A DNA stretch of 32,000 nt from an archaeon. Lineage in GTDB: Archaea; Iainarchaeota; Iainarchaeia; Iainarchaeales; CSSED10-239. The notes below the pieces were generated by a model, which saw only the letters and a program-made list of their open reading frames with translations, did no database searches and was not told the origin of the DNA. A program made the position numbers and the translations under genes. The stretch is from contig JBAYPN010000002.1 of the NCBI GenBank assembly GCA_041677685.1, positions 1 through 32,000 on the forward strand. The letters are read 5' to 3'. Shown piece by piece: positions 10,267 through 32,000 of the stretch. Numbering within the stretch: position 1 is the stretch's first letter; the number at the start of each line of letters is the position of its first letter.

Positions 10267-10977
10267 TTAATATTGCTTTATAGCACTCCACATAACCTCA
10301 TCTTTAGGATTAACTTCAATTCCATTTGATGTTATTGAGCAAGGATGAACTGCTAGAGAGTGTTTTGTACCTCTTAATTTTCTAATAAAAATAGATCTGT
10401 GTGGAGGTATAAAGTACATAGCAAAAATTCCATCAACAACAAACTCCTCAACACCATAAGCACTAAAGTCCCTTGGTCCTCCTGCAGTCTCAGAAGTTAG
10501 CATTGTTGTACAATCTAAATCCTTTAGATAATCAGAAAATCTAAACAACAGGTTTCTTAATTTTCCTTGATCACTTAACCACGCAGCAAAGGCAGTTGTT
10601 GAGTCAACTGTTAATCTCACAGCACTAATGTCTTTAACCATTGAAGTAATAATGTCAAGTTCTTTATCAATTTGTGGTTCTACAGGTTTTCTTGGATCAA
10701 TGTGCATTCTATAGATCTTCATAAGATTTTTTTGTTCTAAAGACTTAATGTCCCAACCAAAGTTCTCCATGTTCCACACAATATTTTTGAGATTATCTTC
10801 AACAGTTACAAACAAACCAGGGTCACTAAACTTTCTTGCACCTTCATAAATGTATGTTGTTGCAAATAATGTTTTTCCTGATCCTGAACCACCTGGAACT
10901 AAGACTGTTGCACCTTTTGGGATTCCTCCCTGTATTAACTCATCAAAGCCAATTACACCTGTTGGTATTCTCTGCAT
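10267..10977 (-). CDS. KaiC-like / RecA-superfamily single-domain ATPase
   Basis: 236 aa. The N-terminus RIPTGVIGFDELIQGGIPKGATVLVPGGSGSGKTLFATTYIYEG carries the Walker A motif, and a Walker B-like RLTVDS follows. This is typical of the archaeal KaiC/RadA-like ATPase family (COG0467-type). It is the only minus-strand gene in the window. Confidence 0.8.
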   Translation of the reverse strand: MQRIPTGVIGFDELIQGGIPKGATVLVPGGSGSGKTLFATTYIYEGARKFSDPGLFVTVEDNLKNIVWNMENFGWDIKSLEQKNLMKIYRMHIDPRKPVEPQIDKELDIITSMVKDISAVRLTVDSTTAFAAWLSDQGKLRNLLFRFSDYLKDLDCTTMLTSETAGGPRDFSAYGVEEFVVDGIFAMYFIPPHRSIFIRKLRGTKHSLAVHPCSITSNGIEVNPKDEVMWSAIKQY

Positions 10978-11368
10978 ATTTGATCACAAATTTCTCCTTT
11001 TAATTATTAATTTTAATTTTAAATTACTTAATTAAAATATACTTCGTTATCTTTAAATAACTTCCTTTTTTTAAATTAATTTGTAGTCTGTTTACTTCTT
11101 TTTTAAGATTGCCAAAAATCAATTTTTTCCTTAAAAAAACATCTCTATTTATAAAGTTTTTGCAACCATATTACTTTATGCTCTTATTATCATCTCTCTA
11201 TCTATTATTCTCAAGAATTTTTGAAAAAAATATATTTTCTAATTATAACTTAACTTTAACTCCTATTTATGAGAGCAGCTTTTCAATTTTAACATAAATA
11301 ATAATTAATAGAAATTAATAATTAAAAATTAATGTAAATTAAAATAAATAAAATTTAAGGTGTTTACT

Positions 11369-11686
11369 TTGGCTGAAAAAGAAAAAACTGAAACTATTAA
11401 AATTAAAAAAGCAACTTTAAAAAAGAAGAGTGTTAGAAAGGTTAGAAGACAGAGAAGAGTTAAAGATGAGATTGTTCATAACTTTATACCAGAACATATC
11501 TTGTTAACAAAAGAAGAAGTTGAGATTTTAGAAAAGAAAGAAATCTCTACAGACAAATTACCACTTATTTTTATAGCTGATCCTGCAATTAGACATTTAG
11601 AGCTAAATGAGGGCGATGTTATTAAGATTATTAGAAAGAACAATATTATTGGAGATGTAGAATATTATAGAAGAGTTGTTAAATAG
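11369..11686 (+). CDS. rpoH: DNA-directed RNA polymerase subunit H (Rpo5) with a basic N-terminal extension
   Basis: The core HNFIPEHILLTKEEVEILEKKEISTDKLPLIFIADPAIRHLELNEGDVIKIIRK...YYRRVV matches archaeal RpoH. There is no in-frame ATG. The ORF-track GTG at 11360 sits inside the SD-like AAGGTG (11357-11362). TTG at 11369 lies 6 nt downstream and is preferred. Confidence 0.85.
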   Translation: MAEKEKTETIKIKKATLKKKSVRKVRRQRRVKDEIVHNFIPEHILLTKEEVEILEKKEISTDKLPLIFIADPAIRHLELNEGDVIKIIRKNNIIGDVEYYRRVVK

Positions 11687-11870: not shown

Positions 11871-13328
11871 ATGGATAAATGGGAAATAGTAGAATCATAT
11901 TATAAACAAGCTGGACCAATATATCAAAGATTAAAATCCTTTGATCAATTTATTGAAGAAAAGGTTACAGAGATTGTTGAGGAAAGCGGAGTTGTTGAAT
12001 GTAATAATAATGTAAAAATTAAACTATCAAATGTAGAGATTACAAGACCAGAAATTGTAGAAGCAGACAGAAGTGCGAGAGTAAGACTAACACCAATGGA
12101 AGCAAGGCAAAGAAACATGACTTATGCTGGGTCCATTTATTTAGATATTGCACTTTATAGAAAAGATGTGCTGATTGATGAAAAAAGAACATATGTTGGA
12201 GAAATTCCAATTCTTGTAAAATCAAAATATTGTAATCTTTATGGGGTTAATGAACAAGACCTAATTGACTTTGGAGAAGATCCAATGGACTTAGGTGGAT
12301 ACTTTGTAATCAATGGTTCTGAGAAAGCATTAATTACTCAAGAAGTTTTAGCCTTAGATAAAATCTTGTTAACAGAAAGTGACGGACTTGTAAAAGCACA
12401 AGTAATCTCTGTAAAGGGAGCTTTTAAAGGAAAAGTTAAAATTGAAAGAAACATAGAAGGACTTTTATATATCTCATTTCCTTCATCTCCTAGAAAGTTA
12501 GCATTAATTGATCTGTTAAATGCCTTAGGTGTTGTTAAGCCTAAAGAAATTTTAGATCTTTTTAGTGACGATAGATTGATTAGAAATGAAATCTTATTAA
12601 ATTTAGATAAAATTGAATGTGTTTCTGAACAAGATGCTTTAGACAAGATTGGAAAAGCTGTTGCTCCTTCCCAAACCCAAGCTTATAGACTTAGAAGAGC
12701 ACAAGAAGTTATTGATTCATTTTTACTTCCACATATTGGTCAGAATAAAAAGGATAGATCTGCAAAAGCCTATTACCTAATAACTATGGCAACAAAGATT
12801 ATTGAAAAGGCATACAACCTAAGACCAGATGCAGACAAAGACCATTATTCTAACAAAAGATTAGAGATGACTGGAAAGTTAATGGAGAATCTATTTAGAT
12901 ATGCATTTAAACATTTTGTAAATGATTTAAAATTCCAAATTGATAGAACAATTTCAAGACATAGAAAATTAAATATTACAACTGTGATTAGACCTGAAGC
13001 AATTTCAGAAAGAATAAGATTTGCTGTAAGCACAGGGACTTGGGTTGGCTCAATTACAGGGGTTTGTGCTTTTATGGACAGAATCAATTATGTTGCACCA
13101 TTAACAAATATGAGAAAAATAAAATCAACTTTAGATTCACAAAGAGAACTTTATGAAGCAAGAGATGTTCATGGAACCCACTGGGGTAGACTTTGTCCAA
13201 TTGAGACCCCTGATGGACCTAACTGTGGTTTGTCTAAAAATCTATCTTTGATGGCAAGGGTAACAACAGATGTTAATTATGTAAACATTCTAAAGGACAT
13301 TGATATTGAAGAAATTAAAATTAAATGA
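11871..13328 (+). CDS. rpoB2: DNA-directed RNA polymerase subunit B'' (Rpo2 N-terminal half)
   Basis: 485 aa. The N-terminus VESYYKQAGPIYQRLKSFDQFIEE and the segments GYFVINGSEKALITQE and DHYSNKRLEMTGKL are typical of the N-terminal half of the second-largest RNAP subunit. It ends with TGA. Confidence 0.93.
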   Translation: MDKWEIVESYYKQAGPIYQRLKSFDQFIEEKVTEIVEESGVVECNNNVKIKLSNVEITRPEIVEADRSARVRLTPMEARQRNMTYAGSIYLDIALYRKDVLIDEKRTYVGEIPILVKSKYCNLYGVNEQDLIDFGEDPMDLGGYFVINGSEKALITQEVLALDKILLTESDGLVKAQVISVKGAFKGKVKIERNIEGLLYISFPSSPRKLALIDLLNALGVVKPKEILDLFSDDRLIRNEILLNLDKIECVSEQDALDKIGKAVAPSQTQAYRLRRAQEVIDSFLLPHIGQNKKDRSAKAYYLITMATKIIEKAYNLRPDADKDHYSNKRLEMTGKLMENLFRYAFKHFVNDLKFQIDRTISRHRKLNITTVIRPEAISERIRFAVSTGTWVGSITGVCAFMDRINYVAPLTNMRKIKSTLDSQRELYEARDVHGTHWGRLCPIETPDGPNCGLSKNLSLMARVTTDVNYVNILKDIDIEEIKIK

Positions 13329-13497: not shown

Positions 13498-13526
13498 AAA
13501 ACAGAAAATTAAAAGATGTGAAAAAA

Positions 13527-15344
13527 ATGGGTATTAACAAATGTAAAATTTATATAAATGGAAGTTTGGTTGGTTTTCATAATAACCCTCTAAAGTTGAA
13601 AAATGATCTAATTAATAAAAGAAGGACTGGAGCTATTGATGATGAGATTAACATCTCCTATGACCAACCAACTAATGAATTATATATAAACACAGATAGT
13701 GGAAGATTACAAAGACCTGTAATCATTTTAGAAAATGGAAAATCAAAAATAACTAAAGAAGTTTTAGAGGATCTAAAAAATAATAAATTATCCTGGCAAG
13801 ACCTAATCTCAAAAGGTATGATTGAGTATCTTGATGCTGAAGAGGAAGAAAATACTTTAGTTGCCCTTGATGAAAGTGAGATTACCCCACAACACACACA
13901 CTTAGAGATTTCAGGAACTGCAATTTTTAGTGTAATAACATCCATGATCCCTTTTGCTCAACATAACATGGCTGGAAAAGCAATCTTTGGTGCAAAGATC
14001 TTTAAACAAGCTGTTGGTCTTCCTGCTGTTAATTATAGAAATAGATTTGATACAGAAATGCATTTATTATATTACCCACAAAAACCACTAGTGACTACAA
14101 GAACAGAAAAATTATTAAAAATTGATAAAAGACCAATGATCCAAAATGCAGTTGTTGCAATCATGCCCTATAAAGGCTTTAACATGACTGATGCCTTGAT
14201 CTTGAACAAAGGAGCAGTTGAGAGAGGACTGTCTAGATCCTTTTATTTTAGATCCTATTCTGCTCAAGAAAATAGATATCCTTCAGGTCAAGCAGACGAA
14301 TTTACAATTCCTACAGAGACCACTTTAGGGTTTAGAGGGGAAGAAGCATATGCTAATTTAGGACTTGATGGAATTTCAAATTTAGAAGTAAATATTCCTA
14401 AGGGTGGAGTAATTATTGGTTTAACTTCTCCTCCTAGATTTGTTGAAGAAATATCTGAATTTGGAGTTGTTTCTGAAGACAGAAGAGAATCCTCAATTAC
14501 TTCTAGAAAGCATCTAGAAGGGCATGTTGACAGAGTTATGTTTTCTCAAACAATTGGAGGAATTAGACTTTGTAAAGTTAAGGTTAGAACTGAATTGATT
14601 CCACAAGTTGGAGATAAATTTTCCTCACATCACGGGCAAAAAGGTGTTGTTGGGGCTGTGGTTGATGAGGCTGACATGCCTTTTAGTGAGAATGGAATGA
14701 AACCTGACTTTATTTTAAACCCACACTCAATTCCTTCAAGAATGACAATTGGGCACATGTTTGAAACAATTGCTGCAAAGGCAGGAGCATTGTCAGGAAC
14801 AGAGATTGATGGTACTCCTTTCTATTCTGACAAAGAATCAATTTTTAAGATGTTAAAAGATTATGGTTTTAGAGAAGATGGAAAGGAAACCTTTTATGAT
14901 GGAGTTACTGGTGAAAAAATAGAGATGCCAATCTTTGTAGGTCCAATTTCTTTTAAAAGACTATACCACGTTGTTACTAACAAGATACAAGCAAGAGACA
15001 CAGGTTCTGTCCAATTACTAACAAGACAACCAACTGAAGGTAAAGAGAAAGGTGGAGGTCTAAGATTTGGTGAGATGGAAAGTGATGCTTTGGTAGGACA
15101 TGGAGCTGCAATGTTACTTCATGAAAAACTAATGGATTCAGCAGATGAACTAGAAGTATATGTTTGTTCTGATTGTGGGATCTTAGCTGTTGATGATAAA
15201 ATTAGAAATAGAAAATATTGCCCTATATGCTCTGGTGGTAACATTGAAAAAGTAATTATTAGTTATGGTTTCAAACTACTATTAGATGAACTAAAAGCTT
15301 TAGGTGTTTATCCAAAGTTAAAAATTGGAGACAAAATAGATTAA
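13527..15344 (+). CDS. rpoB1: DNA-directed RNA polymerase subunit B' (Rpo2 C-terminal half)
   Basis: About 605 aa. Recognisable segments are SGRLQRPVIILENGK, GDKFSSHHGQKGVVG, GGLRFGEMESDAL and the C-terminal Zn ribbon CSDCG...CPICSG. GTG at 13518 is an alternative start. Confidence 0.93.
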   Translation: MGINKCKIYINGSLVGFHNNPLKLKNDLINKRRTGAIDDEINISYDQPTNELYINTDSGRLQRPVIILENGKSKITKEVLEDLKNNKLSWQDLISKGMIEYLDAEEEENTLVALDESEITPQHTHLEISGTAIFSVITSMIPFAQHNMAGKAIFGAKIFKQAVGLPAVNYRNRFDTEMHLLYYPQKPLVTTRTEKLLKIDKRPMIQNAVVAIMPYKGFNMTDALILNKGAVERGLSRSFYFRSYSAQENRYPSGQADEFTIPTETTLGFRGEEAYANLGLDGISNLEVNIPKGGVIIGLTSPPRFVEEISEFGVVSEDRRESSITSRKHLEGHVDRVMFSQTIGGIRLCKVKVRTELIPQVGDKFSSHHGQKGVVGAVVDEADMPFSENGMKPDFILNPHSIPSRMTIGHMFETIAAKAGALSGTEIDGTPFYSDKESIFKMLKDYGFREDGKETFYDGVTGEKIEMPIFVGPISFKRLYHVVTNKIQARDTGSVQLLTRQPTEGKEKGGGLRFGEMESDALVGHGAAMLLHEKLMDSADELEVYVCSDCGILAVDDKIRNRKYCPICSGGNIEKVIISYGFKLLLDELKALGVYPKLKIGDKID

Positions 15345-23449: not shown

Positions 23450-23765
23450 TTCCCTTTTTCTTTTTTATTATTTTATAGTTCTGTTTTTAAAATTAAGCTT
23501 CTACAATATTACTATTGTGGATTACAAAACTATTGATGAAGTGTATACGAAATAAGATTCTATTTTAAAAGATAATTAATTTAATTATTTTATAGAACTG
23601 ATGTTGTTAGATAAATAAAATTTTTAATAGATAAACACCATTGTAAAAAAGATCAGACATTTAGATTAAGCTAAAAATTAAATAAGTTTTTTCAAGATCT
23701 AGAAAAATAAAATATAATAAAAATATTTAGGTTCTCTAAATTAAGATATAGATAGGGAGAATTTG

Positions 23766-26700
23766 ATGATTGATAATAGATTTTTAATAATTTTTGTAAT
23801 CTTGGTAGTTTTTTTCACATTTAATATTAATTCATATGAAATTGTAGATTCTAAGACAGTCTTCTATGATCAAGAGATTAATTTAAACCTTCTAGATTTA
23901 AATGAAAATTCAGATCACTTAAAAGTGATCTTGTCAGTTATTAATTTTGATGATGACAAGGTTTATTTTGAAAAAGAACTAAGTTCTTCTAAACAAGATT
24001 TAGATAATTTCACATTCTCTAAATTGTACAATCCTAGATTGTTGTTTAAGTATGATTTTTATGATCAAAATTCACAATTGTTATTTCAAAAGATCTACCA
24101 AATAGATCTAATAGAAAACCCAAAAGACTTTAAAATATTTATTTGCAATTCTGAAAAGCAAAAAGATTGTGTGCCCTCTAGCAGACTAAGCTATAAAGAT
24201 TCAATTTATGTTTTTTCTTCAAATTCTTCTATAGTAGATTACAATGTTTCTGTTTTTGATCTAGAAGGTAACTTACAAAAAGAATATAGTCTAGTGTCCC
24301 TTCCATTAAAATTAGATTTTGATTATCTAGGAATCTACAAAATTAAAGTTGAAGCAAATAATATTTCTAAGACACAATTTTTAGAAATAACTAACCAAAA
24401 AGAAAATCCAGAATATTTTTTAGATATTTCAAACAAAGATGGTGTGGAGTCTTTAGAACCAATGGCTAATAATGCTTTAAAAAATAAAAATAATCTTTTT
24501 CTGTTCCTAAAAATCATTTTAATAATCATCTTACTAGTTTTAATCTATTCTTTCTTATTTAAGATAAAAGAAAAAGAAAATAGAAGGGAAAAGAGAAAAA
24601 ATAAAAAACTATTAGTTATCTTAATTATAATTTTGTTCATTTCATTTTCATTTATTACCCCCCTTCACTCTTATGAAATTGAGTATAATGATTTAGAGAT
24701 ATCCTATCAAGATCTACAAACTAAATTTGAATATCCAAAAGAAATAAGTTTACTTGTTTACCCTGGCATCTCAAGTCAGAAGAAAATAATTCCAATTGTT
24801 GATTTTGATCAGATCTATTCAGGAGAACTTAACCTAAATGAGAGTTATGAAATTGAAGATAAAAATTTTAAAAACTCTACTTTAGATTTAGACATTAGCT
24901 TAATAGATGTTTATTTGATTGCAGATAAAAAAATCCAACAACAATTGAAATTAGATAATTTAAAAACCTATCAAGAATGTTATAATGTTATTAACTTTTA
25001 TAATAACAACCCAATCCAGTCAAGAGCAGATCTTGTTAATAGAACCTTTTTTGGATTAATAAATGATAATCATTTTTCAGAAGGGTGTGTTTCTGATTTA
25101 GTAAACTCCAATATCCTGGTGCCTAAAAAGCTATTAGTAGAAATTAATTATTCTGATAGTTCTTTTGATTATAATAAAAACAAAACTTTTGATCTTAAGT
25201 GTAATATTTCTCATATCTTTTGGAATGCAGAATCTAAAAAAATAAAACTTAATTTAATTTACACTGATAAGCTAGACTTGCAAATGAAGGTAACTAACAA
25301 TTTAAAAGATATAATTTTCAATCTAGAAAATAATGGTGTTAACATCTCTTCTAAGGGCCAATTCCCAAAAGAAACAGATACCATCAATTACCTAAAAAAT
25401 GATATTTTAAGTTTACAAAATTTAAGTTTATCTAATGATTTTAATTTTTTTGAATTTGAAATAATTAATGGGGATATAGTTAAGTTTAGTGATTTTTACT
25501 CAAGAGCAGTAAATATTGAAAACAGGGGTGTTAATTATAATTTAAGGTCAATATCTAAAATGATTGAAACTGACAATAAGAATAATTTCTTAATTGATTA
25601 TTATTTAATAAATGGAAACCTATCTAAATCTAAAAGCACATATTTTAGTAGAAACAGATCAAAATTAAGAGTAAAGTCTGCAAAAGAAAATATAACATTT
25701 TATAATAATGATGATGGGTTATATGTGAAAGATGATTTTGGGTATGAAAAAATATATCCAGACAATTATAATTTAAATATTTATTACTATTATAAAGTCT
25801 ACCCAGACTATATTGACTTTTATGTAATTAATTATGATGTAGAAAATATAATCATTTACAACGATGTTTTCTCATATACTTTCTTTAATTCTTTGTTAAC
25901 TTTAGATTCTGATCTTAACATAACTAATATTAGTTCTAATGAGTTTGGTAGAAGTATAACTATTGATAATAAATATACTTTTAATTCAGAGCTTTTCATT
26001 CCAAATTTAGATTCTTATTATTTAATTGATGAGGATTATGTTCTAAAAGAAAAAAGCAATTTGCAAAGTTTTTATGACCAAGATCAAAATCTGCTCTTTG
26101 AATCAATTTTAAATAAGCAGTATAGTTTCTTTAAAGAAGATTTTGAAGAATTAAAAAGAAAAATTATTATATCTACTGATGTATCTAATGCTTATGATTT
26201 TGATAGAAAACAAACTAATCTTTTTATAGCTTACTATCTTTCTAAAATTGAAGACTCTTTTGATTCTCCATCTAAAGTACATGACTTTTTTTGTAAACAA
26301 GATAGTTATGAAAAATATAGTGGTTATTTTAAAAATGCAAACTTTTCGTATTTTAAATATAATTTCTTAGACTCAATTGATGTTTATGGAAACAATCCTT
26401 TTATTATTGAAAAAGATTTTAATAAGGTAGATTATGAAAGATTTTGCCAATATCTGATCAACAAACCTAATCAAGAAACAATTGATTTTACTACAGCCAT
26501 ATTTTTAGGAGCTGACTATTTACAACAAGAGAAAGTAAGTGTTAAATTTTTAGATTCAGTTTTAGTTAATAGTTCTTACAGTCATATTTTTACAAAAAAA
26601 GAATTATATTTGTTTGTGTCTAATTATTTATTATTCAATAATATTTTACAGGATGAAAATCTTAGTTATGCTTATGAGCTAAAAAAAATCTATAACAATA

Positions 26701-27323
26701 GCTTTTTAGATTTTAAGATCCCAAACTACAATTATGAAAAAAAAACTATTAAAGAGATTATAGAATCTAAATATCTTAACAATTCTAAATATGTTGGAAA
26801 CTGTGCACAACTTTCAGTTGACTCTTTAAATTATCTTTTTAACTATAAGGATAAATATAATGTTGCTGATGCTTGGTATCTTGTAGGTAATAATAATATT
26901 AGTGTCTGGAGAAAAGATGCTGACAGGCCATTAAACATCTCACATTTGATCCCTGGAGTAGTTCTTGGAATCCATACTAGTGGAAACAATTATTATGAAT
27001 ATAAAAATTTTATTAAACCAAATAACTATGATCTACCAAACTTTTATTTAAATCAAGGATATTATTCTTATTCTGGGCACAAAATAAAAGTACCTTACAC
27101 ACATGTTGTTTCTTATCTTGGAGATGTTGGAGATGATAGAGGTGTGGTTTTAAATGCAGGTAGTTCAAATATTTATTCTTTATTAATATCAGATTATGTG
27201 CCTAGGGGTAAAGATGAAGGAAATTGGATTGTAAGAACTATTGTTGAGGTTTTAGTTCCAAGTAACTATTACTCAGAAGAAGAAATTAAAAATTTGAAGA
27301 CTTATTTGACATCTTTTGATTAG
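23766..27323 (+). CDS. Large (1185 aa) secreted/membrane protein with an internal TM hairpin and a C-terminal Cys/His peptidase-like region
   Basis: GGGAG at 23755-23759 lies 6 nt upstream of ATG 23766. There is an N-terminal hydrophobic signal or anchor, then two TM segments (about 24495-24560 and 24609-24665) flanking the basic loop KIKEKENRREKRKNKK. The rest is long, N/Y/D-rich and apparently extracellular. Near the C-terminus are GNCAQLSVDSL (Cys codon 26802), PGVVLGIH and YTHVVSYLGD. Confidence 0.7.
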   Translation: MIDNRFLIIFVILVVFFTFNINSYEIVDSKTVFYDQEINLNLLDLNENSDHLKVILSVINFDDDKVYFEKELSSSKQDLDNFTFSKLYNPRLLFKYDFYDQNSQLLFQKIYQIDLIENPKDFKIFICNSEKQKDCVPSSRLSYKDSIYVFSSNSSIVDYNVSVFDLEGNLQKEYSLVSLPLKLDFDYLGIYKIKVEANNISKTQFLEITNQKENPEYFLDISNKDGVESLEPMANNALKNKNNLFLFLKIILIIILLVLIYSFLFKIKEKENRREKRKNKKLLVILIIILFISFSFITPLHSYEIEYNDLEISYQDLQTKFEYPKEISLLVYPGISSQKKIIPIVDFDQIYSGELNLNESYEIEDKNFKNSTLDLDISLIDVYLIADKKIQQQLKLDNLKTYQECYNVINFYNNNPIQSRADLVNRTFFGLINDNHFSEGCVSDLVNSNILVPKKLLVEINYSDSSFDYNKNKTFDLKCNISHIFWNAESKKIKLNLIYTDKLDLQMKVTNNLKDIIFNLENNGVNISSKGQFPKETDTINYLKNDILSLQNLSLSNDFNFFEFEIINGDIVKFSDFYSRAVNIENRGVNYNLRSISKMIETDNKNNFLIDYYLINGNLSKSKSTYFSRNRSKLRVKSAKENITFYNNDDGLYVKDDFGYEKIYPDNYNLNIYYYYKVYPDYIDFYVINYDVENIIIYNDVFSYTFFNSLLTLDSDLNITNISSNEFGRSITIDNKYTFNSELFIPNLDSYYLIDEDYVLKEKSNLQSFYDQDQNLLFESILNKQYSFFKEDFEELKRKIIISTDVSNAYDFDRKQTNLFIAYYLSKIEDSFDSPSKVHDFFCKQDSYEKYSGYFKNANFSYFKYNFLDSIDVYGNNPFIIEKDFNKVDYERFCQYLINKPNQETIDFTTAIFLGADYLQQEKVSVKFLDSVLVNSSYSHIFTKKELYLFVSNYLLFNNILQDENLSYAYELKKIYNNSFLDFKIPNYNYEKKTIKEIIESKYLNNSKYVGNCAQLSVDSLNYLFNYKDKYNVADAWYLVGNNNISVWRKDADRPLNISHLIPGVVLGIHTSGNNYYEYKNFIKPNNYDLPNFYLNQGYYSYSGHKIKVPYTHVVSYLGDVGDDRGVVLNAGSSNIYSLLISDYVPRGKDEGNWIVRTIVEVLVPSNYYSEEEIKNLKTYLTSFD

Positions 27324-27438: not shown

Positions 27439-29742
27439 ATGATGGATCCAGATTTAGTAAATTATATTTTTGAAGAAATAAAAAAAGGAAAATCAAAAGA
27501 AGAACTTTTCACTTTCTTAACTGTTGAGCAATCATTAAAGATTGAAAGAGAATATTTTGAACAAGCATATTTAGTTGCAAATAAAAAGATTTCTTTACTA
27601 AATAATATTAGAAACTCACAAAGTAATGATAGCCCTTCTCAAACAACTCCTCAAGAAGTACCCTCTCAAGGGACATTTTCTTCTAACAATTCTATAAATT
27701 TAGGTCATGGTAATGATGATTCTAGTAATATTACTTCTCAAAATAGTTCTGTAAACAACAATAGAGAGGATGTTGAAAAAAATTACTTCTCAATTGAAAA
27801 TTATAAAAAACCAGCAACGGTTGCTAAAGATTATAGTAAATATAGTTTGGGTAATGATCAGAATCAAAATCAAAATCAAAATAAAAATACCAATCAGAAT
27901 AACTATTCAAACAATAACCAGAATAACCATAATACAGGTAATCAAAACACTACCCAAAATAAAAAGTTAGAACCTAAAAAATCAAAGAAAGGCTTTAAGA
28001 TTTTTTTAGCAATTTTTATAATATTACTTTTGTTAGTTGTTATTTACTTGTTTATTTTACCAAAAGTTGGAATTGATCTTAACCTAGAGTCATTATTTAA
28101 AAAGTCTTCTCAAGAAATTGATAACTCAAGTATGGATAGAGATCTAGTAGCTGTTGTTTCTGCAACACCAAAACCTGGGAATTATTCTGAGAAGATTGAT
28201 GTTTCTTTTTCAACAGATTTAAATGATGCTGTCATATATTATAGTTTAGATGAAAAAGACATAATTACTAATGGGTTATTGTATACTGCTCCAATTTCAA
28301 TTGATAAAAACACAGTTGTTAATGTTGTTGCTTCTAAGGATGGTAGCTTGTCAGAGACTTTTTATTTTAATTATTTGTTTGTTGTAGATAGCAATAATGT
28401 TTCTAATGATAATAATGTTGTAGAAACCTGCTCTGATGGAATTAAAAATCAAGACGAAACAGGTGTTGATTGTGGGGGGGTTTGTCAACCTTGTCCTGAT
28501 CAAGATCAAAATCTTCCTTCTGTAGAAACTTGTTCTGATGGAATTAAAAATCAAGACGAAACAGGTGTTGATTGTGGAGGAGTTTGTCAACCTTGTTTAC
28601 CAGCTGGTGGCTCAGGTGGTGGCTCAGGTGGTGGCTCAGGTGGTGGCTCAAATCCTCCAGTAAACCCTCCAGTAGATGTTACCTTTTGTGACTCAGATAT
28701 AGTTAATTACTCTAAAACTATAAACGGACCTTCTAAAGATTTATTAAAAACTGCAGATAATAAATTATTAGTTATTGGTAATAGTGTAAATAATAATAAT
28801 AGTTACATAACTAAATTAAATTCTGACTATACTTTAGTTTGGGATCATAATTACCCAGCATCTAACATAGTATTTAATTCTATAACAGAAACAACTAATG
28901 GTTATTTGGTAACTGGTAGCTTAGATAACAAGATTGCTCTTTTTAAAATAAGTTTGGATGGAGATTTAGATTGGAACAAGAGCTATAATTATTCAAATTC
29001 AGTTGCACATTTTATAACTAAGACAGGGACAAGTTACATAGTTGGAGGTAGTTATTCTAATGTTGATTCTTTTGACTTCTTATTAATCAAAGTTAATGAA
29101 GATGGTCAACAAATTTCACAGTTTACAAAATCTGTATTTAATAATGATTATTATTATAAGGCAGTAACAGATAACTCATATATTTACCTTTTAGGGAAAT
29201 CAAATTTAAATAATAATAATTATGATTATATTTCTAAAAATAAGATTTCTGACCTTTCAGAAGTTTGGTCAAATATAATTCAGTCGTCTGTAAGTTCTAA
29301 TCAAGCAATATATTTAGACACAGAAAACCTATTTATTTCAAATTTACAAGATACATTTGTTGGAGTTGATGAAAATGTAGTTTTAGATGTTAAAGAAAAG
29401 TTAGCTATTGTTAATGTAAATAAAGCTGATGGTAATATAGATAACATTTATTATTTCAAATTTTCAAATTGTAACGATTGTCAACCAATTGGAAGAAATA
29501 TTTTTAAAAAAGAAAACTCATACTTAATTTTTGGGATTTTAAATAATTTTAGTAAAGGGGTTACTTTTGAAGTTGACAGCACTTTTGAAAACTCTTTATT
29601 TGAGGAGCAGTATACAGAGTTGTCAAGTAATTTAGATGATATCTTTGTAGATGTTATATATAATGATAATAAGTATACTACTCTAAATAACACATCTAGT
29701 TGTTTGGTGGATAATTCTTTAGTATTAATTGATTTGGAATGA
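27439..29742 (+). CDS. Type II membrane-anchored mosaic surface protein (767 aa)
   Basis: Domain order by eye:
1. An N-terminal ~50-aa domain paralogous to the 33..677 product.
2. An S/N/Q-rich linker including NQNQNQNKNTNQN.
3. A TM helix (FKIFLAIFIILLLLVVIYLFILP).
4. A chitobiase/hexosaminidase-C-terminal-like segment (PGNYSEKIDVSFS...AVIYYSLDEKD...YTAPISIDKNTVVNVVA).
5. Two copies of ETCSDGIKNQDETGVDCGGVCQPC.
6. A (GGGS)n linker.
7. A ~350-aa C-terminal region with propeller-like repeats (GYLVTGSLDNKIALFKISLDGDLDW; SYIVGGSYSN..FLLIKVNEDGQ). Confidence 0.75.
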   Translation: MMDPDLVNYIFEEIKKGKSKEELFTFLTVEQSLKIEREYFEQAYLVANKKISLLNNIRNSQSNDSPSQTTPQEVPSQGTFSSNNSINLGHGNDDSSNITSQNSSVNNNREDVEKNYFSIENYKKPATVAKDYSKYSLGNDQNQNQNQNKNTNQNNYSNNNQNNHNTGNQNTTQNKKLEPKKSKKGFKIFLAIFIILLLLVVIYLFILPKVGIDLNLESLFKKSSQEIDNSSMDRDLVAVVSATPKPGNYSEKIDVSFSTDLNDAVIYYSLDEKDIITNGLLYTAPISIDKNTVVNVVASKDGSLSETFYFNYLFVVDSNNVSNDNNVVETCSDGIKNQDETGVDCGGVCQPCPDQDQNLPSVETCSDGIKNQDETGVDCGGVCQPCLPAGGSGGGSGGGSGGGSNPPVNPPVDVTFCDSDIVNYSKTINGPSKDLLKTADNKLLVIGNSVNNNNSYITKLNSDYTLVWDHNYPASNIVFNSITETTNGYLVTGSLDNKIALFKISLDGDLDWNKSYNYSNSVAHFITKTGTSYIVGGSYSNVDSFDFLLIKVNEDGQQISQFTKSVFNNDYYYKAVTDNSYIYLLGKSNLNNNNYDYISKNKISDLSEVWSNIIQSSVSSNQAIYLDTENLFISNLQDTFVGVDENVVLDVKEKLAIVNVNKADGNIDNIYYFKFSNCNDCQPIGRNIFKKENSYLIFGILNNFSKGVTFEVDSTFENSLFEEQYTELSSNLDDIFVDVIYNDNKYTTLNNTSSCLVDNSLVLIDLE
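28420..28596 (+). repeat. In-frame 102-bp tandem duplication encoding the Cys motif module
   Basis: Copy 1 (28420-28494) and copy 2 (28522-28596) differ at only 4 of 75 positions. All four are synonymous third-position transitions (ACC/ACT, TGC/TGT and GGG/GGA twice). Confidence 0.9.
28606..28650 (+). repeat. 12-bp coding microsatellite (GGTGGTGGCTCA) encoding GGSGGGSGGGSGGGS
   Basis: ggtggctca is followed by three copies of ggtggtggctca. This is a locally GC-rich island in AT-rich sequence. Confidence 0.9.
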
Positions 29743-29989: not shown

Positions 29990-30036
29990 ATGTTTTATAA
30001 TATAATTATTTTTATAAAATTTAGAGGTGTATTATT

Positions 30037-32000
30037 TTGGCAAAGAAAGAAAGTAAAATAAAAAATACAAAAACAAATTTAAAAACAAATACAAAAAACA
30101 AATTAACAAGAAATGGAAACATTTATTTTATAATAATTATAGTTTTATTAATAGCATTAATTTTTATAACAGGATTTAGGACTGAAGGTTTTTTAACAAA
30201 AGTACTTTCGTTAGATAGTTCTTCTAGAAATGTTAAAAGTGCGAGTTGTGTTTATGCTGACTTAACTAACTTAAAATCATCTGATTCTTTAGTGTTAGGT
30301 TGTGAGTATGATAAATCTATAGGTTATTTTTGTGATGAGGATTTAAAATTAAAATCAAAAACTTATACTCTTAAAAGAGATACTTGTAAAACTTTAAATA
30401 CATGTTTTGATGGCATTAAAAATCAAAATGAAACTCAAATAGATTGTGGAGGAGTTTGTGCTCCTTGTAACTCAGGTTCAGGTTCTAGTTGTGAAGATGA
30501 TTCTGATTGTGATGATGGTAATCCATGTACAAGTGAATATTGTAGTCAAGCAGGAGAATGTGTGGTTTCTGTATCCTTAAATGGTTCAAGTTGTGGAGAT
30601 GATCAGGTTTGTGATTCAGGAGTTTGTTATGGTTTAGATGCTTTTGATTGTAGTCAATATCCAAGTTGTCAAGGTAATGATTGTTACTATATTCATGCAT
30701 TAAGTGATATGCCAGTTTGTGCAGATTTAGATGCTGGATCTGGTTGGGAATTTACCCATACAGATATTGGGCAACAGTTAATATTGCCTTGGGCAGGTAC
30801 CTCTAATGTCCCACAAACACAAATTATTGTAAATGGAGAGGATTTAGAAGATGGAGACTTAGTTGGTGTTTTCCATTTTGATGAAGAGTTGCAGATGGAT
30901 GTTTGTGAAGGCTTTATTGCTTGGGATGCTGTAAATGTACCTTATAATCTTATTTTAGTAAGCGCTTTTACTCCTATATTACCTTTATGGGGAGGAATGG
31001 TTCCTGGTGAAGAACTAATTTGGAAAGTTTATAAAAAATCAACAGACACAGAGTATGTAATGACACCTACCTTTTATAATGCTGATGAGCTAGCAGATGG
31101 TGGAATGAGTATAATTGATTTCTCTCAAAATAATTATTTTGCTCCTGATGAACTTACAGTTTTAAAGAAATTAGAAAATATACAAAATTGTAGTAGTAAC
31201 TATGATTGTTCAGATGGAGATCTATGTACTCAAGATATTTGTACAAATGGAGTTTGTTCAAATCCAATTGTAAACAATGGGTCAAGTTGTGGTGGAGGTA
31301 ACATCTGTTTTAATGGTAACTGTATAGAGCCAGAATGTACTTCTGCATCTAATTGTGAAACACAACTTTGTTATAATACAACATGTACTGATTATGTATG
31401 TAAAAACACAATGTATCCTGACAACACACTTTGTGGAACTAATATGATTTGTCAAGCAGGAAATTGTGTAGCTGAACCAGAATGTTCTGTAGCTTCAGAT
31501 TGTCCTGATGATCTAAACCCTTGTACTTATAATGTTTGTTCTTCAGGGGAATGTTCATATCAAAATGTAAGTAATGGAACAAGTTGTGGGAATAATATGG
31601 TTTGTCAAGCAGGGAATTGTGTAGCTGAACCTGAATGTGCTTCTAATGATGATTGTGAGGCTGGAGAGATTTGTTCATCAGGAATTTGTGTAGCTGAACC
31701 TGCAAATTATTGTATGACAAATGCACAATGTGATGATGGTTTAGATTGGACAACTAACTATTGTGGAGCTGATCACACCTGTGTGAATGTAGATAACATA
31801 GGATATAGTTATAGTAAACTTAAAAATCCAAATGGTAGTATAGAAGAATATAGTTGTCAAGTAAAAGAAGATTGTCCAACAAACACAATAGACCCTTGTC
31901 ATAAACTAAATGCTAATGCTTGTTCAGGAACATCCAAATGTGCTTATTCACAACAACCACCTGAACCTAATCCATTTTATAATGGAGACAAAATATGTAG
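30037..32000 (+). CDS. Membrane-anchored cysteine-rich repeat surface protein, 3'-partial (runs off the window)
   Basis: This ORF is not in the supplied ORF track. I translated it by hand. An in-frame TAG lies at 30022, GAGGTG at 30024-30029 and TTG at 30037. From there the frame is open for 654 codons to the window end, and the last complete codon ends at 31998. The N-terminus is Lys-rich (AKKESKIKNTKTNLK) and is followed by a TM helix (IYFIIIIVLLIALIFITGF). Next comes CFDGIKNQNETQIDCGGVCAPC (30403-30468). After that there are at least 5 Cys-rich modules of type C..D.DC.D.NPCT...C..G.C.....NG.SCG....C..G.C. Confidence 0.8.
   Translation, partial: MAKKESKIKNTKTNLKTNTKNKLTRNGNIYFIIIIVLLIALIFITGFRTEGFLTKVLSLDSSSRNVKSASCVYADLTNLKSSDSLVLGCEYDKSIGYFCDEDLKLKSKTYTLKRDTCKTLNTCFDGIKNQNETQIDCGGVCAPCNSGSGSSCEDDSDCDDGNPCTSEYCSQAGECVVSVSLNGSSCGDDQVCDSGVCYGLDAFDCSQYPSCQGNDCYYIHALSDMPVCADLDAGSGWEFTHTDIGQQLILPWAGTSNVPQTQIIVNGEDLEDGDLVGVFHFDEELQMDVCEGFIAWDAVNVPYNLILVSAFTPILPLWGGMVPGEELIWKVYKKSTDTEYVMTPTFYNADELADGGMSIIDFSQNNYFAPDELTVLKKLENIQNCSSNYDCSDGDLCTQDICTNGVCSNPIVNNGSSCGGGNICFNGNCIEPECTSASNCETQLCYNTTCTDYVCKNTMYPDNTLCGTNMICQAGNCVAEPECSVASDCPDDLNPCTYNVCSSGECSYQNVSNGTSCGNNMVCQAGNCVAEPECASNDDCEAGEICSSGICVAEPANYCMTNAQCDDGLDWTTNYCGADHTCVNVDNIGYSYSKLKNPNGSIEEYSCQVKEDCPTNTIDPCHKLNANACSGTSKCAYSQQPPEPNPFYNGDKIC

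What the first reader, a model, noticed from the sequence alone, without database searches (positions are those of the whole stretch)
30037..32000. Hidden ORF of more than 654 codons: TTG-initiated, membrane-anchored cysteine-rich repeat protein absent from the ORF track
Seen in sequence: the frame beginning at TTG 30037 has no stop to the end of the window, and GAGGTG lies 7 nt upstream. The only listed ORF here (30485..30700, minus strand, His/Asn-rich) is its antisense shadow.

The product has a short Lys-rich cytoplasmic tail, one TM helix, then dozens of Cys arranged in repeated ~50-aa modules. One example is SVASDCPDDLNPCTYNVCSSGECSYQNVSNGTSCGNNMVCQAGNCVAEPEC. Two modules share a near-identical DNA stretch 153 nt apart (31444-31485 vs 31597-31638). 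A Cys-poor insert of about 150 aa (about 30740-31190) interrupts the array.

From memory, the DC.D.N.CT.D.C..G.C pattern resembles Dictyostelium-type or myxobacterial cysteine-rich repeats. Such disulfide-rich ectodomains are unusual for archaea.

Inference: this is a candidate adhesin or host-contact protein of an episymbiotic archaeon.
Basis: partly seen in the sequence, partly recalled or inferred. Interest (0 to 1): 0.7.

Follow-up and report, generated by a model that had tools for sequence, protein, structure and literature searches.

The report
Cysteine-rich membrane-anchored archaeal surface protein
The open frame is a real 992-residue gene of a small DPANN-type archaeon, already annotated elsewhere as hypothetical, that most likely puts a disulfide-stapled stalk carrying two uncharacterised beta-sandwich domains on the cell surface; it is probably a binding or adhesion protein and is moderately interesting.

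Summary
The frame from TTG 30037 is open to the window end (0 stops against 28-94 in the other frames; chance about 5e-28). GAGGTG lies 7 nt upstream, and there is a Lys-rich tail, one TM helix, repeated Cys modules and a Cys-poor insert.

"Hidden" is an artefact. The ORF lister omits ORFs that run off the window, and public MAGs annotate the gene as a 992-aa hypothetical protein of "Candidatus ainarchaeum sp." (15 members in its 90% cluster).

Architecture: N-in signal anchor; a conserved N-domain ending in a widespread 24-aa 'DCGG' 4-Cys unit; five canonical 8-Cys modules of about 45 aa plus degenerate ones; and two copies of a roughly 110-aa beta-sandwich domain. One copy is the insert and one is a diverged C-terminal copy (hhalign 97%). 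The Cys modules are Dicty_CTDC-like: two orthologs pass Pfam's cutoff, this protein does not. The beta-sandwich has no Pfam or NCBIfam model and no fold match, and is otherwise seen in giant Bacteroidota T9SS surface proteins.

The gene sits in a conserved three-gene surface cluster, with a DsbA-like oxidoreductase nearby.

Strain variation avoids every Cys and the stalk, and concentrates in the beta-sandwich and linker regions.

The adhesin role is inferred, not shown. "Unusual for archaea" and "episymbiont" are unsupported.

The parts
30026..30031 (+). Shine-Dalgarno-like GAGGTG, 7 nt before the start codon
   Evidence: Read directly. It matches 6 nt of the GGAGGTGATC consensus. Other genes in the window carry GTGA, GGTGAT or AGGTG at 1-8 nt. 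The same AGAGGTG-N7-TTG context occurs in the L085 paralog.
30037..32000 (+). CDS, 5' two-thirds (aa 1-654 of 992). The gene continues 1,015 nt beyond the window, for 2,979 nt in total including the stop.
   Evidence: Open frame. The full-length 992-aa product P0001 is 100% identical over the window part. It is encoded at L003 10001-12979 and at L004. NCBI annotates it as a hypothetical protein.
30037..30120 (+). Lys-rich cytoplasmic tail, aa 1-28 (9 K/R, 1 D/E)
   Evidence: A Lys-rich tail is also present in orthologs P0002 and P0003. The N-in topology follows from the positive-inside rule and is an inference.
30121..30177 (+). Single TM helix or signal anchor, aa ~29-47
   Evidence: Kyte-Doolittle 19-aa windows reach 3.13. 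The AF2 model shows a helix at aa 28-47. Whether the segment is cleaved was not tested.
30184..30477 (+). Conserved membrane-proximal N-domain, aa 50-147 (8 Cys), shared with P0002 and P0003
   Evidence: Alignment A1. There are 0 variable columns among 10 strain variants. No Pfam model matches.
30403..30468 (+). 'DCGG' 4-Cys mini-module, CFDGIKNQNETQIDCGGVCAPC (aa 123-144)
   Evidence: The motif was found in 80 loci of archaeal and bacterial MAGs, often in tandem with a 24-aa period. No Pfam or NCBIfam hit.
30490..30627 (+). 8-Cys module 1 (aa 152-197), Dicty_CTDC-like
   Evidence: Pattern C-x5-C-x5-C-x4-C-x4/5-C-x10-C-x5-C-x4-C. It scores 39.8 bits against an HMM built only from P0002/P0003 modules. 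The best Pfam Dicty_CTDC stretch is aa 157-176.
30628..30732 (+). 4-Cys linker (aa 198-232), first part of the insert unique to this protein and the most strain-variable segment
   Evidence: Absent from P0002 and P0003. 37% of its columns vary among strain variants.
30742..31125 (+). Beta-sandwich domain copy 1 (aa 236-363), the 'Cys-poor insert', with a tail running to aa 384 (31188)
   Evidence: Exhaustive phmmer found 104 other representative proteins at E <= 1e-3, with up to 8 copies per protein. A profile built from those proteins scores 82 bits here. The AF2 model has pLDDT 81 and pTM 0.78 and is all-beta. There is no PDB or BFVD fold match at E < 0.001 and no Pfam or NCBIfam model.
31189..31323 (+). 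8-Cys module 2 (aa 385-429)
   Evidence: 26.4 bits with the HMM that excludes P0001.
31336..31467 (+). 8-Cys module 3 (aa 434-477)
   Evidence: 12.6 bits with the HMM that excludes P0001.
31483..31620 (+).
   Evidence: 48.9 bits with the HMM that excludes P0001.
31636..31782 (+). Two truncated or half modules (aa 534-582)
   Evidence: Weak partial HMM matches at aa 534-554 and 559-584.
31783..31998 (+). Start of a degenerate Cys-containing region (aa 583-734 in the full protein); strain-variable
   Evidence: Cys spacing is irregular. 10.5% of its columns vary.
31426..31488 (+). DNA-level duplicate, copy A (copy B at 31579-31641, 153 nt away, 87% identical over 63 nt)
   Evidence: Several public contigs break inside the gene near this point.
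30485..30700 (-). Antisense 71-codon ORF, a shadow of the Cys-rich frame and not a gene
   Evidence: Its translation is a His/Asn/Leu-rich low-complexity peptide. The plus-strand frame is conserved across orthologs and strains.
27439..29742 (+). Upstream neighbour, 767 aa: single-pass membrane protein with CHB_HEX_C_1, two DCGG modules and a C-terminal region of about 380 aa with no family; part of the conserved cluster
   Evidence: A 51%-identical homolog lies next to ortholog P0002 in L085.
23763..27323 (+). 1186-aa protein with an N-terminal hydrophobic segment and no family match; part of the conserved cluster
   Evidence: A 44%-identical full-length homolog lies next to P0002 in L085.

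Best explanation
This is a genuine, TTG-initiated gene for a 992-residue type II (N-in, C-out) single-pass membrane protein of a low-GC DPANN-type archaeon. NCBI MAG records label the organism 'Candidatus ainarchaeum sp.', which probably means Iainarchaeota.

Proposed mechanism:
1. The Lys-rich tail stays in the cytoplasm and the single helix anchors the protein.
2. The rest is exported and oxidised, probably by the membrane-anchored DsbA-like CSFC oxidoreductase encoded about 7 kb downstream.
3. About ten small disulfide-knotted units form a rigid, protease-resistant stalk. They comprise one 'DCGG' 4-Cys unit, five canonical Dicty_CTDC-like 8-Cys modules and several degenerate ones.
4. The stalk displays two copies of an uncharacterised beta-sandwich domain of about 110 aa. 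One sits mid-stalk (the 'insert') and one, diverged, sits at the distal C-terminus.
5. These sandwiches are the likely ligand-binding heads. The protein would therefore act as a surface binding, adhesion or recognition molecule, together with the two co-conserved neighbouring surface proteins.

Shown: gene reality, start codon, domain anatomy, homologies, conserved cluster, pattern of variation. Inferred: topology, disulfide formation, stalk-and-head mechanics, binding function, and the partner (a host cell, another cell or a polymer).
For: - Gene reality: the frame is open and chance is excluded. The full-length product is recovered from independent assemblies, with 15 members in its 90% cluster, and NCBI annotates it at 992 aa.
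- Start codon: it is forced by the upstream TAG. The SD plus TTG plus Ala-Lys-Lys context is conserved in the L085 paralog.
- Topology: the tail has 9 K/R against 1 D/E, there is a single strongly hydrophobic 19-aa segment, and there is no C-terminal hydrophobic segment.
- Stalk modules: five canonical 8-Cys modules are detected with an HMM that excludes this protein (106 bits in total). Orthologs pass Pfam Dicty_CTDC, and one also passes DUF7107.
- Beta-sandwich insert: it is homologous to repeats in 104 other representative proteins (best E = 5e-32). The sampled carriers have T9SS sorting tails, SprB repeats or Ig/PKD domains, and named ones are Bacteroidota or Bacteroidales.
- C-terminal domain: it is conserved in all three orthologs and is a diverged copy of the same domain (HMM 23 bits; hhalign probability 97.2%, E = 2.9e-11 over 104 columns).
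- Fold: the AF2 model of the insert is a confident all-beta fold (pLDDT 81).
- Strain variation: among 10 variants no Cys is lost. The N-domain and canonical modules vary in 0-0.5% of columns, against 8.6-37% in the linker, both beta-sandwich domains and the degenerate region. This fits a constrained stalk and diversifying heads.
- Oxidation and export: a DsbA-like enzyme (Thioredoxin_4 115 bits, DSBA 69 bits, CSFC motif, N-terminal TM) and an MMPL/SecDF-like pair lie downstream.
- Conserved cluster: the neighbours of 1186 and 767 aa are co-located with the ortholog in a second organism.
- Analogy: in M. xanthus TraA and Dictyostelium PsiA/DicA1, Cys-rich repeats accompany a PA14 recognition domain on secreted or surface proteins (PMC3325183).
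Against: - No ligand, expression or localisation data exist.
- The beta-sandwich has no characterised relative in Pfam, NCBIfam, PDB sequences or folds, or BFVD, so 'binding head' rests on architecture alone.
- The full-length AF2 model is unusable (pLDDT 35), so stalk rigidity and disulfide pairing are not modelled.
- The window protein falls below the curated thresholds of every Cys-repeat family tested.
- The hydrophobic segment could be a cleaved signal peptide, not an anchor. This was not tested.
- Sequon density is no higher than in shuffled sequence (14 against 13.4), so it gives no extra support for a glycosylated ectodomain.
- The variation pattern comes from only 10 closely related sequences and could reflect recombination and not selection.
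- An episymbiotic lifestyle was not established for this organism.
Confidence: 0.6

Rival explanations
1. The protein captures substrate and does not contact cells. The beta-sandwich domains would act as carbohydrate-binding-module-like units that hold extracellular polysaccharide at the cell surface. They would work with the neighbouring 767-aa protein, whose CHB_HEX_C_1 domain is typical of glycosidase accessory regions.
For: - The neighbour carries CHB_HEX_C_1 and Fn3_assoc and is co-conserved with the gene.
- The bacterial carriers of the beta-sandwich are T9SS cargo. From general knowledge, T9SS cargo in Bacteroidota includes many polysaccharide-binding or -degrading proteins.
- The fold is a small beta-sandwich, as CBMs are.
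Against: - No CBM or glycoside-hydrolase family is detected in any of the three cluster proteins.
- There is no fold match to a CBM in the PDB.
- CHB_HEX_C_1 is only an Ig-like accessory domain.
Confidence: 0.2
2. The protein is a structural envelope component, such as an S-layer-associated spacer or scaffold. The Cys-rich modules would only provide a rigid pillar, and the beta-sandwich domains would mediate lateral packing and not ligand binding.
For: - The protein is membrane-anchored with an elongated, repeat-built ectodomain.
- The stalk is strongly conserved.
- It clusters with other surface proteins and a CARDB/DUF11 protein.
Against: - Variation is concentrated in the non-stalk domains, which is more typical of interaction surfaces.
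- Module number and the presence of the insert differ between orthologs (656, 766 and 992 aa), which is unexpected for a lattice component.
- No S-layer family and no PGF-CTERM-like C-terminal segment was found.
Confidence: 0.15
3. The plus-strand frame is not expressed or is a pseudogene or assembly artefact, and the minus-strand 71-codon ORF is the real feature.
For: - The minus-strand ORF was the only ORF listed in this stretch.
- Several public contigs break inside the gene.
Against: - The chance of the open frame is about 5e-28 in the window and about 4e-42 for the full 992 codons.
- The full-length gene appears in independent assemblies.
- Orthologs are 35-45% identical with all module Cys conserved.
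- No Cys is lost among strains.
- The minus-strand product is low-complexity.
Confidence: 0.01

Closest known systems
Pfam PF00526 Dicty_CTDC repeat proteins (for example Dictyostelium PsiA and DicA1) and the overlapping Pfam PF23416 DUF7107
   Same: - They share the 'DC.D.NPCT.D.C..G.C' core and tandem small disulfide-rich modules in secreted or surface proteins.
- Orthologs P0002 and P0003 pass the Dicty_CTDC cutoff (66.5 and 54.6 bits), and P0002 passes DUF7107 (41.1 bits).
   Different: - The window protein itself scores below both cutoffs (18.5 against 27, and 16.4 against 24.6).
- The repeating unit here is a 45-aa, 8-Cys module, about twice the length of the 24-aa Pfam model.
- The host is an archaeon.
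- There is no PA14 domain, and the protein has an N-terminal signal anchor.
Myxococcus xanthus TraA (PA14 + TIGR04201 Cys-rich repeats + MYXO-CTERM), a cell-surface recognition receptor and adhesin (PMC3325183)
   Same: - The design principle is the same: a Cys-rich repeat region on a surface protein combined with a non-repeat domain that is polymorphic between strains.
- There is a weak TIGR04201 match (16.5 bits).
   Different: - The TIGR04201 score is below its cutoff of 25.
- There is no PA14 domain and no MYXO-CTERM.
- Anchoring is by an N-terminal TM helix.
- The head domain is an unrelated, uncharacterised beta-sandwich.
- No evidence exists for membrane exchange.
Giant Bacteroidota T9SS-secreted surface proteins (with Por_Secre_tail, and in some cases SprB repeats or Ig/PKD domains) that carry tandem copies of the same ~110-aa beta-sandwich
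   Same: The beta-sandwich domain is clearly homologous (E down to 5e-32; 82 bits with a profile that excludes the query).
   Different: - Those proteins are bacterial and are secreted through the T9SS using a C-terminal sorting domain. They carry 2-8 tandem copies and no Cys-rich stalk.
- The archaeal protein has two copies separated by Cys modules and no Por_Secre_tail.
- The domain has no curated model or known function in either setting.
Secreted proteins of Woesearchaeota, Altiarchaeota, Methanosarcinales, Patescibacteria, Bacteroidota and Myxococcota that carry the 'DCGG' mini-module
   Same: They share the 22-24-aa C.DG..N..E...DCGG.C..C unit. It is also present twice in the adjacent 767-aa protein.
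   Different: Those proteins otherwise have unrelated architectures. None of the 80 species-representative loci has the canonical 8-Cys modules or the same N- and C-terminal domains.

Membership tests
Pfam PF00526 Dicty_CTDC | Whole-protein HMM score at or above the gathering cutoff (27 bits) | tested here: not met
   The window fragment scores 19.1 bits and the full-length P0001 scores 18.5 bits. Orthologs P0002 (66.5) and P0003 (54.6) do pass, so the lineage-specific family is Dicty_CTDC-related, but this member is too diverged for the curated model.
Pfam PF00526 Dicty_CTDC | Repeated Cys-spacing and the 'DC.D.NPCT.D.C..G.C' core motif | tested here: met
   There are five modules with C-x5-C-x4-6-C-x4-C-x4-6-C-x9-12-C-x5-C-x4-C. 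An HMM built from P0002/P0003 modules alone scores P0001 at 106 bits in total, with 12.6-48.9 bits per module.
Pfam PF23416 DUF7107 | HMM score at or above the cutoff (24.6 bits) | tested here: not met
   16.4-17.0 bits. P0002 scores 41.1 bits and P0003 scores 9.9 bits.
NCBIfam TIGR04201 Myxo_Cys_RPT / TraA-like receptors | Repeat HMM at or above 25 bits; PA14 head domain; MYXO-CTERM sorting tag | tested here: not met
   TIGR04201 scores 16.5 bits. There is no PA14 hit at E <= 10. There is no C-terminal hydrophobic tag, and the protein ends ...NCTPVYHID.
   No such family is listed at E <= 10 for P0001, P0002 or P0003. HMMER's filters drop most matches above E of about 0.1, so only clear membership is excluded.
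Uncurated ~110-aa beta-sandwich repeat of Bacteroidota T9SS cargo (no accession) | Significant sequence homology across the whole domain, with the signature W..x.T..(N)H...GD.[IV]G[VA]F...C.G...W...G...GEE..WK[IV][WY]...EY | tested here: met
   phmmer finds 104 other representatives at E <= 1e-3 and 21 at E <= 1e-10. A profile without the query scores 82 bits over aa 236-363. The C-terminal domain gives hhalign probability 97.2%.
Uncurated ~110-aa beta-sandwich repeat of Bacteroidota T9SS cargo (no accession) | T9SS C-terminal sorting domain (Por_Secre_tail) on the carrier protein | tested here: not met
   There is no PF18962 or TIGR04183 hit in P0001. This is expected for an archaeon: the domain is shared but the secretion route is not.
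Archaeal PGF-CTERM / archaeosortase-anchored surface (S-layer) glycoproteins | C-terminal PGF motif plus TM helix plus basic tail | tested here: not met
   There is no hydrophobic segment after aa ~323, no matching Pfam or NCBIfam hit, and the anchor is N-terminal.
Type II (signal-anchor) membrane proteins | Positively charged N-terminal tail, a single long hydrophobic segment that is not cleaved, and a C-terminal ectodomain | tested here: inconclusive
   The charge bias and a 19-aa hydrophobic core are present and conserved in the orthologs. Whether the segment is cleaved cannot be decided with these tools.

The most novel reading that the evidence does not exclude
The three co-conserved genes (1186 aa, 767 aa and this 992-aa protein) could encode a lineage-specific attachment apparatus of Iainarchaeota-like DPANN archaea. 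In this reading, a disulfide-knotted stalk presents a previously undescribed beta-sandwich adhesion domain shared across domains of life with Bacteroidota T9SS adhesins, and the strain-variable heads determine partner specificity. That would define a new domain family and give a testable handle on how these small archaea recognise other cells.
Probability: 0.15. Interest if true: 0.6.

Novelty: new variant of a known kind. Interest (0 to 1): 0.35.

Why it matters
How DPANN archaea attach to and recognise partners is largely unknown, and few candidate surface molecules have been dissected. This protein offers several concrete leads:
- a well-delimited candidate, with anchor, stalk modules and two putative binding heads;
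- a conserved three-gene context;
- a nearby DsbA-like enzyme, which argues that extracellular disulfide chemistry is used by this archaeon.

It also exposes two widespread sequence modules with no curated family. One is the 24-aa DCGG unit. The other is a beta-sandwich of about 110 aa that is abundant in giant Bacteroidota surface proteins. Both are worth a database entry and a structure.

On the other hand, modular Cys-rich surface proteins are a familiar theme, the gene is already annotated as hypothetical, and no function is demonstrated. The finding is a useful annotation and not a surprise.

Tried and rejected
1. AF2 on the full-length protein with a 3-sequence alignment gave mean pLDDT 35. 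The model is unusable and was not sent to fold search.
2. A word-indexed homolog search with the C-terminal domain found nothing, not even the protein itself. I treated this as an index limitation. The domain's relationship was established instead by a local HMM and hhalign.
3. BLASTP of the insert against the C-terminal domain was not significant (E = 0.7). Only profile methods reveal the relationship.
4. The PDB sequence search with the protein and with the domain profile gave nothing significant. The 4k4k 'putative cell adhesion protein' hit at E = 0.044 is not significant and was not used.
5. Foldseek against the PDB and BFVD gave no hit at E < 0.001. The best were transthyretin- or Asf1-like sandwiches with TM of about 0.35-0.45. 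I rejected any specific fold assignment beyond 'beta-sandwich'.
6. N-glycosylation sequon enrichment was tested and is not different from shuffled sequence.
7. Recent horizontal transfer of the insert was considered. Codon usage (GC3 0.19 for the insert, 0.12 for the gene, 0.16-0.21 for neighbours) gives no sign of recent acquisition. Ancient transfer cannot be judged.
8. Literature searches for DPANN or Woesearchaeota Cys-rich surface proteins found nothing specific. PMC7379824 concerns a different, eukaryotic Cys repeat.
9. The genome-contig scan found no full-length ortholog among GTDB species representatives. It found only the DCGG motif, because the scan patterns were drawn from that motif.
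10. An archaeal TATA-box reading of the upstream region was considered and dropped. TATA-like strings are everywhere in DNA that is 72% A+T.
Full report
**1. Observation**

The frame that begins at TTG 30037 is open to the end of the window: 654 codons. The other five frames of the same 1,964 nt contain 28-94 stops. With the window's composition (39% A, 33% T) the chance of 654 stop-free codons is about 5e-28.

An in-frame TAG sits at 30022. TTG 30037 is the only ATG/GTG/TTG before GTG 30292, which lies beyond the hydrophobic helix, so the start is essentially forced. GAGGTG occupies 30026-30031, 7 nt upstream. Several other genes in the window carry partial anti-SD complements (GTGA, GGTGAT, AGGTG) at 1-8 nt.

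The remaining details also check out:
- The N-terminus has 9 K/R against 1 D/E in 28 residues, followed by one strongly hydrophobic 19-residue segment.
- There are 59 Cys within the window part.
- Modules start every 49-51 residues (aa 385, 434, 483, 534).
- The minus-strand ORF 30485-30700 encodes a His/Asn/Leu-rich low-complexity peptide.

**2. Not a hidden gene**

The ORF is missing from the ORF list only because that tool omits ORFs that run off the source. Looking up the complete upstream neighbour recovered the source contigs: JGI 3300014206 Ga0172377_10000707, and NCBI MAG GCA_023230325.1.

A homolog search returned a 992-aa protein (P0001) that is 100% identical over the whole query. 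It is encoded in full on an 88-kb ENA contig and on a Logan contig.

Exact look-up shows 15 members in its 90%-identity cluster. Several are NCBI entries annotated 'hypothetical protein [Candidatus ainarchaeum sp.]' or '[archaeon]', at 991-993 aa. Gene callers used the same start.

Several assemblies break inside the gene, giving partials of 506, 507, 527, 566 and 855 aa. The 507-aa break falls next to the 153-nt-spaced duplicate.

**3. Organism**

The window carries rpoH, a split rpoB (B''/B'), rpoA'/A'', L30e-S12-S7, archaeal-type ProRS and AlaRS, an ATP-dependent DNA ligase and a KaiC-like ATPase, at about 28% GC. It is an archaeon.

The NCBI label probably corresponds to Iainarchaeota, a DPANN phylum (kingdom Nanobdellati). 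The exact spelling in the label is not in the taxonomy copy. An episymbiotic lifestyle was not tested.

**4. Anatomy of the protein**

The full protein has 87 Cys in 992 aa (8.8%). The neighbouring proteins range from 0 to about 2% Cys.

Alignment with the only two proteins that share both termini (P0002, 656 aa; P0003, 766 aa; 45% and 35% identity) defines the following parts:

a. A Lys-rich tail and a TM helix.

b. A conserved membrane-proximal domain (aa 50-147) ending in CFDGIKNQNETQIDCGGVCAPC.

c. A variable number of 8-Cys modules with the pattern C-x5-C-x5-C-x4-C-x4/5-C-x10-C-x5-C-x4-C. Canonical copies start at aa 152, 385, 434, 483 and 735. Half or degenerate copies lie at aa 534-582, 583-734 and 785-837.

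d. An insertion at aa 198-384 that the two orthologs lack.

e. A conserved C-terminal domain (aa ~838-992).

**5. The Cys modules**

The window protein gets only sub-threshold hits from Pfam and NCBIfam: Dicty_CTDC 18.5-19.1 bits (cutoff 27), DUF7107 16.4-17 (cutoff 24.6) and TIGR04201 Myxo_Cys_RPT 16.5 (cutoff 25).

The orthologs do pass. P0002 scores Dicty_CTDC 66.5 and DUF7107 41.1, and P0003 scores Dicty_CTDC 54.6. An HMM built from P0002/P0003 modules alone scores the window protein at 106 bits, with each canonical module detected.

This member is too diverged to be filed by the curated models. No DUF4215 or EGF hit appears.

**6. The DCGG unit**

A scan of one genome per species with patterns from this motif found 80 loci. 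They come from Woesearchaeota, Altiarchaeota, Methanosarcinales, Nanoarchaeota, Iainarchaeum, Myxococcota, Bacteroidota and Patescibacteria. In these loci the unit often occurs in tandem with a 24-residue period, in proteins that mostly have an N-terminal hydrophobic segment and 2-16% Cys.

The adjacent 767-aa protein has two copies. No curated model covers the unit.

This also shows that Cys-rich exported proteins are not rare in uncultured archaea. That weakens the claim that such ectodomains are unusual for archaea.

**7. The insert and the C-terminal domain are the same uncharacterised beta-sandwich**

An exhaustive phmmer search with aa 199-390 against 1.84 billion representatives found 104 other proteins at E <= 1e-3 (best 5e-32). 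Many are very large, up to 4,991 aa, and carry 2-8 copies of the matching stretch of about 110 aa.

Sampled carriers have T9SS sorting tails (Por_Secre_tail), SprB repeats or Ig/PKD domains. Pfam and NCBIfam report nothing over the matching stretch. Named carriers are Bacteroidales or Bacteroidota hypothetical proteins. A profile search returned 10 further short proteins, 8 of them with T9SS tails or the overlapping FlgD_ig domain.

A profile built from those proteins, without the query, hits the window protein at aa 236-363 (82 bits). It also hits aa 882-931 in the C-terminal domain (23 bits), with '...CAG...VAFGDDPSTPEKDGF...' in register. hhalign of the three orthologs' C-terminal domain against the family alignment gives probability 97.2%, E = 2.9e-11 over 104 columns. 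Plain BLASTP between the two domains was not significant.

AF2 with a 39-sequence alignment gives a confident all-beta model: pLDDT 81, pTM 0.78, seven strands. Foldseek finds no match at E < 0.001 in the PDB or BFVD; the best are generic sandwiches with TM of about 0.35-0.45. A PDB sequence-profile search finds nothing significant.

**8. Context**

Immediately upstream lie two further exported or membrane proteins:
- A 1186-aa protein with no family.
- A 767-aa protein with a TM near aa 186-206, CHB_HEX_C_1, two DCGG units, a Gly/Ser linker and a C-terminal region of about 380 aa with no family.

On a 7-kb, 21% GC contig from a different metagenome, ortholog P0002 is flanked by a 51%-identical homolog of the 767-aa protein and a 44%-identical full-length homolog of the 1186-aa protein. 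Beyond these begins a second paralog of the Cys-rich protein.

That paralog starts TTG GCG AAA AAA, 7 nt after AGAGGTG, with an in-frame stop 21 nt upstream. This is the same initiation context as in the window, and it gives comparative support for the TTG start.

Downstream on the longer contig are an MMPL/SecDF-like pair, a CARDB/DUF11 protein and, about 7 kb away, a membrane-anchored DsbA-family protein with a CSFC motif.

**9. Variation**

Ten full-length strain variants (95-100% identical) differ at 72 alignment columns, distributed as follows:

| Region | Variable columns |
|---|---|
| N-domain (aa 50-151) | 0% |
| Module 1 (aa 152-197) | 0% |
| Modules at aa 385-582 | 0.5% |
| 4-Cys linker (aa 198-232) | 37% |
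| Insert beta-sandwich (aa 233-384) | 8.6% |
| Degenerate region (aa 583-734) | 10.5% |
| Modules at aa 735-837 | 6.8% |
| C-terminal domain (aa 838-992) | 12.9% |

No Cys is ever lost. The sample is small, but the pattern is what a constrained stalk with diversifying interaction domains would give.

**10. Interpretation**

Well supported: this is a real gene for a single-pass, N-anchored, disulfide-rich modular surface protein.

Inferred: the Cys modules form a rigid stalk that is oxidised by the DsbA-like enzyme. The two beta-sandwich domains are binding heads. The protein acts in adhesion or recognition together with its two co-conserved neighbours.

The nearest functional analogies are TraA of M. 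xanthus and the Dictyostelium PsiA/DicA1 proteins, in which Cys-rich repeats accompany a recognition domain on surface or secreted proteins (PMC3325183). This protein fails the membership tests for those families: no PA14, no MYXO-CTERM, and sub-threshold repeats.

Two rivals cannot be excluded: polysaccharide capture at the surface, and a purely structural envelope role. The idea that the antisense ORF is the real feature is effectively refuted.

**11. Verdict**

'Hidden ORF' is an artefact, 'unusual for archaea' is not borne out, and the adhesin-of-an-episymbiont reading remains an inference.

The new information is the domain dissection. The insert and the C-terminal domain are two copies of an uncurated beta-sandwich that is otherwise seen in Bacteroidota T9SS cargo. 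There is a widespread uncurated DCGG unit, a conserved three-gene surface cluster, and variation concentrated in the heads.

I rate this a new variant of a known kind (modular Cys-rich surface proteins), with interest of about 0.35.

Noticed in passing
window 30403-30468; window ~28429-28596 (767-aa neighbour, aa 331-352 and 365-386); loci L005-L084: A 22-24-aa 4-Cys unit, C.DG[IV].N..E...DCGG.C..C, has no Pfam or NCBIfam model. It occurs, often in tandem, in exported proteins of many archaeal (Woesearchaeota, Altiarchaeota, Methanosarcinales, Nanoarchaeota, Iainarchaeum) and bacterial (Myxococcota, Bacteroidota, Patescibacteria) MAGs.
   Followed up: partly
window 23763-27323 and 27439-29742; L085 3-1133 and 3186-6695: The two upstream genes (1186 aa with no family; 767 aa with CHB_HEX_C_1 and two DCGG units) are co-located with the Cys-rich protein's ortholog in a second, 21% GC organism, in a different order. 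That contig also has a second paralog of the Cys-rich protein. This is a conserved surface-protein gene cluster.
   Followed up: partly
L003 19815-20516 (minus strand), about 7 kb downstream of the gene, outside the window: A membrane-anchored DsbA-family oxidoreductase (Thioredoxin_4 115 bits, DSBA 69 bits) with a CSFC active-site motif. It implies extracytoplasmic disulfide formation in this archaeon.
   Followed up: partly
L003 13127-15555, immediately downstream of the gene, outside the window: A pair of 6-TM MMPL/SecD-SecF-like genes directly follows the Cys-rich gene, followed by a CARDB/DUF11 exported protein.
   Followed up: no
window 31426-31488 / 31579-31641; cluster members P0132, P0135-P0138: Several public assemblies end inside this gene, giving partial products of 506, 507, 527, 566 and 855 aa. 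In GCA_023230325.1 the two halves lie on two different large contigs. The 507-aa break is next to the 153-nt-spaced near-duplicate, so the internal repeats probably fragment assemblies.
   Followed up: partly
P0017-P0120 (representative proteins, not in the window): The beta-sandwich domain of about 110 aa is abundant in giant Bacteroidota-type proteins (up to 4,991 aa, with up to 8 copies) that carry T9SS sorting tails or SprB repeats. It has a nearly invariant single Cys in a 'C[GA]G' motif and lacks any curated family or solved structure.
   Followed up: partly
window 5903-5979 and 5932-6738: tRNA-Pro(TGG) overlaps the 5' end of the listed 268-codon GTG ORF, so the real start of that ORF, if it is a gene, must lie downstream. 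The trimmed product has no significant family.
   Followed up: partly
window 11360-11686, 11871-13328, 13518-15344: rpoH (Rpb5_C, 66.8 bits) precedes a split rpoB. About 190 nt separates the listed B'' and B' ORFs. The listed GTG start of B' may not be the true one.
   Followed up: no
window 10267-10977 (minus strand): A KaiC/RadA-like ATPase (PF06745, 199 bits) is the only substantial minus-strand gene in an otherwise uniformly plus-strand window. Local GC skew reverses there.
   Followed up: no
window 834-1769 and 4680-5849: A histidine-specific SAM methyltransferase-like gene (Methyltransf_33, EgtD-type family; 110 bits) and a two-domain PLD-like (cardiolipin-synthase-type) gene sit among the translation and transcription genes.
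   Followed up: no
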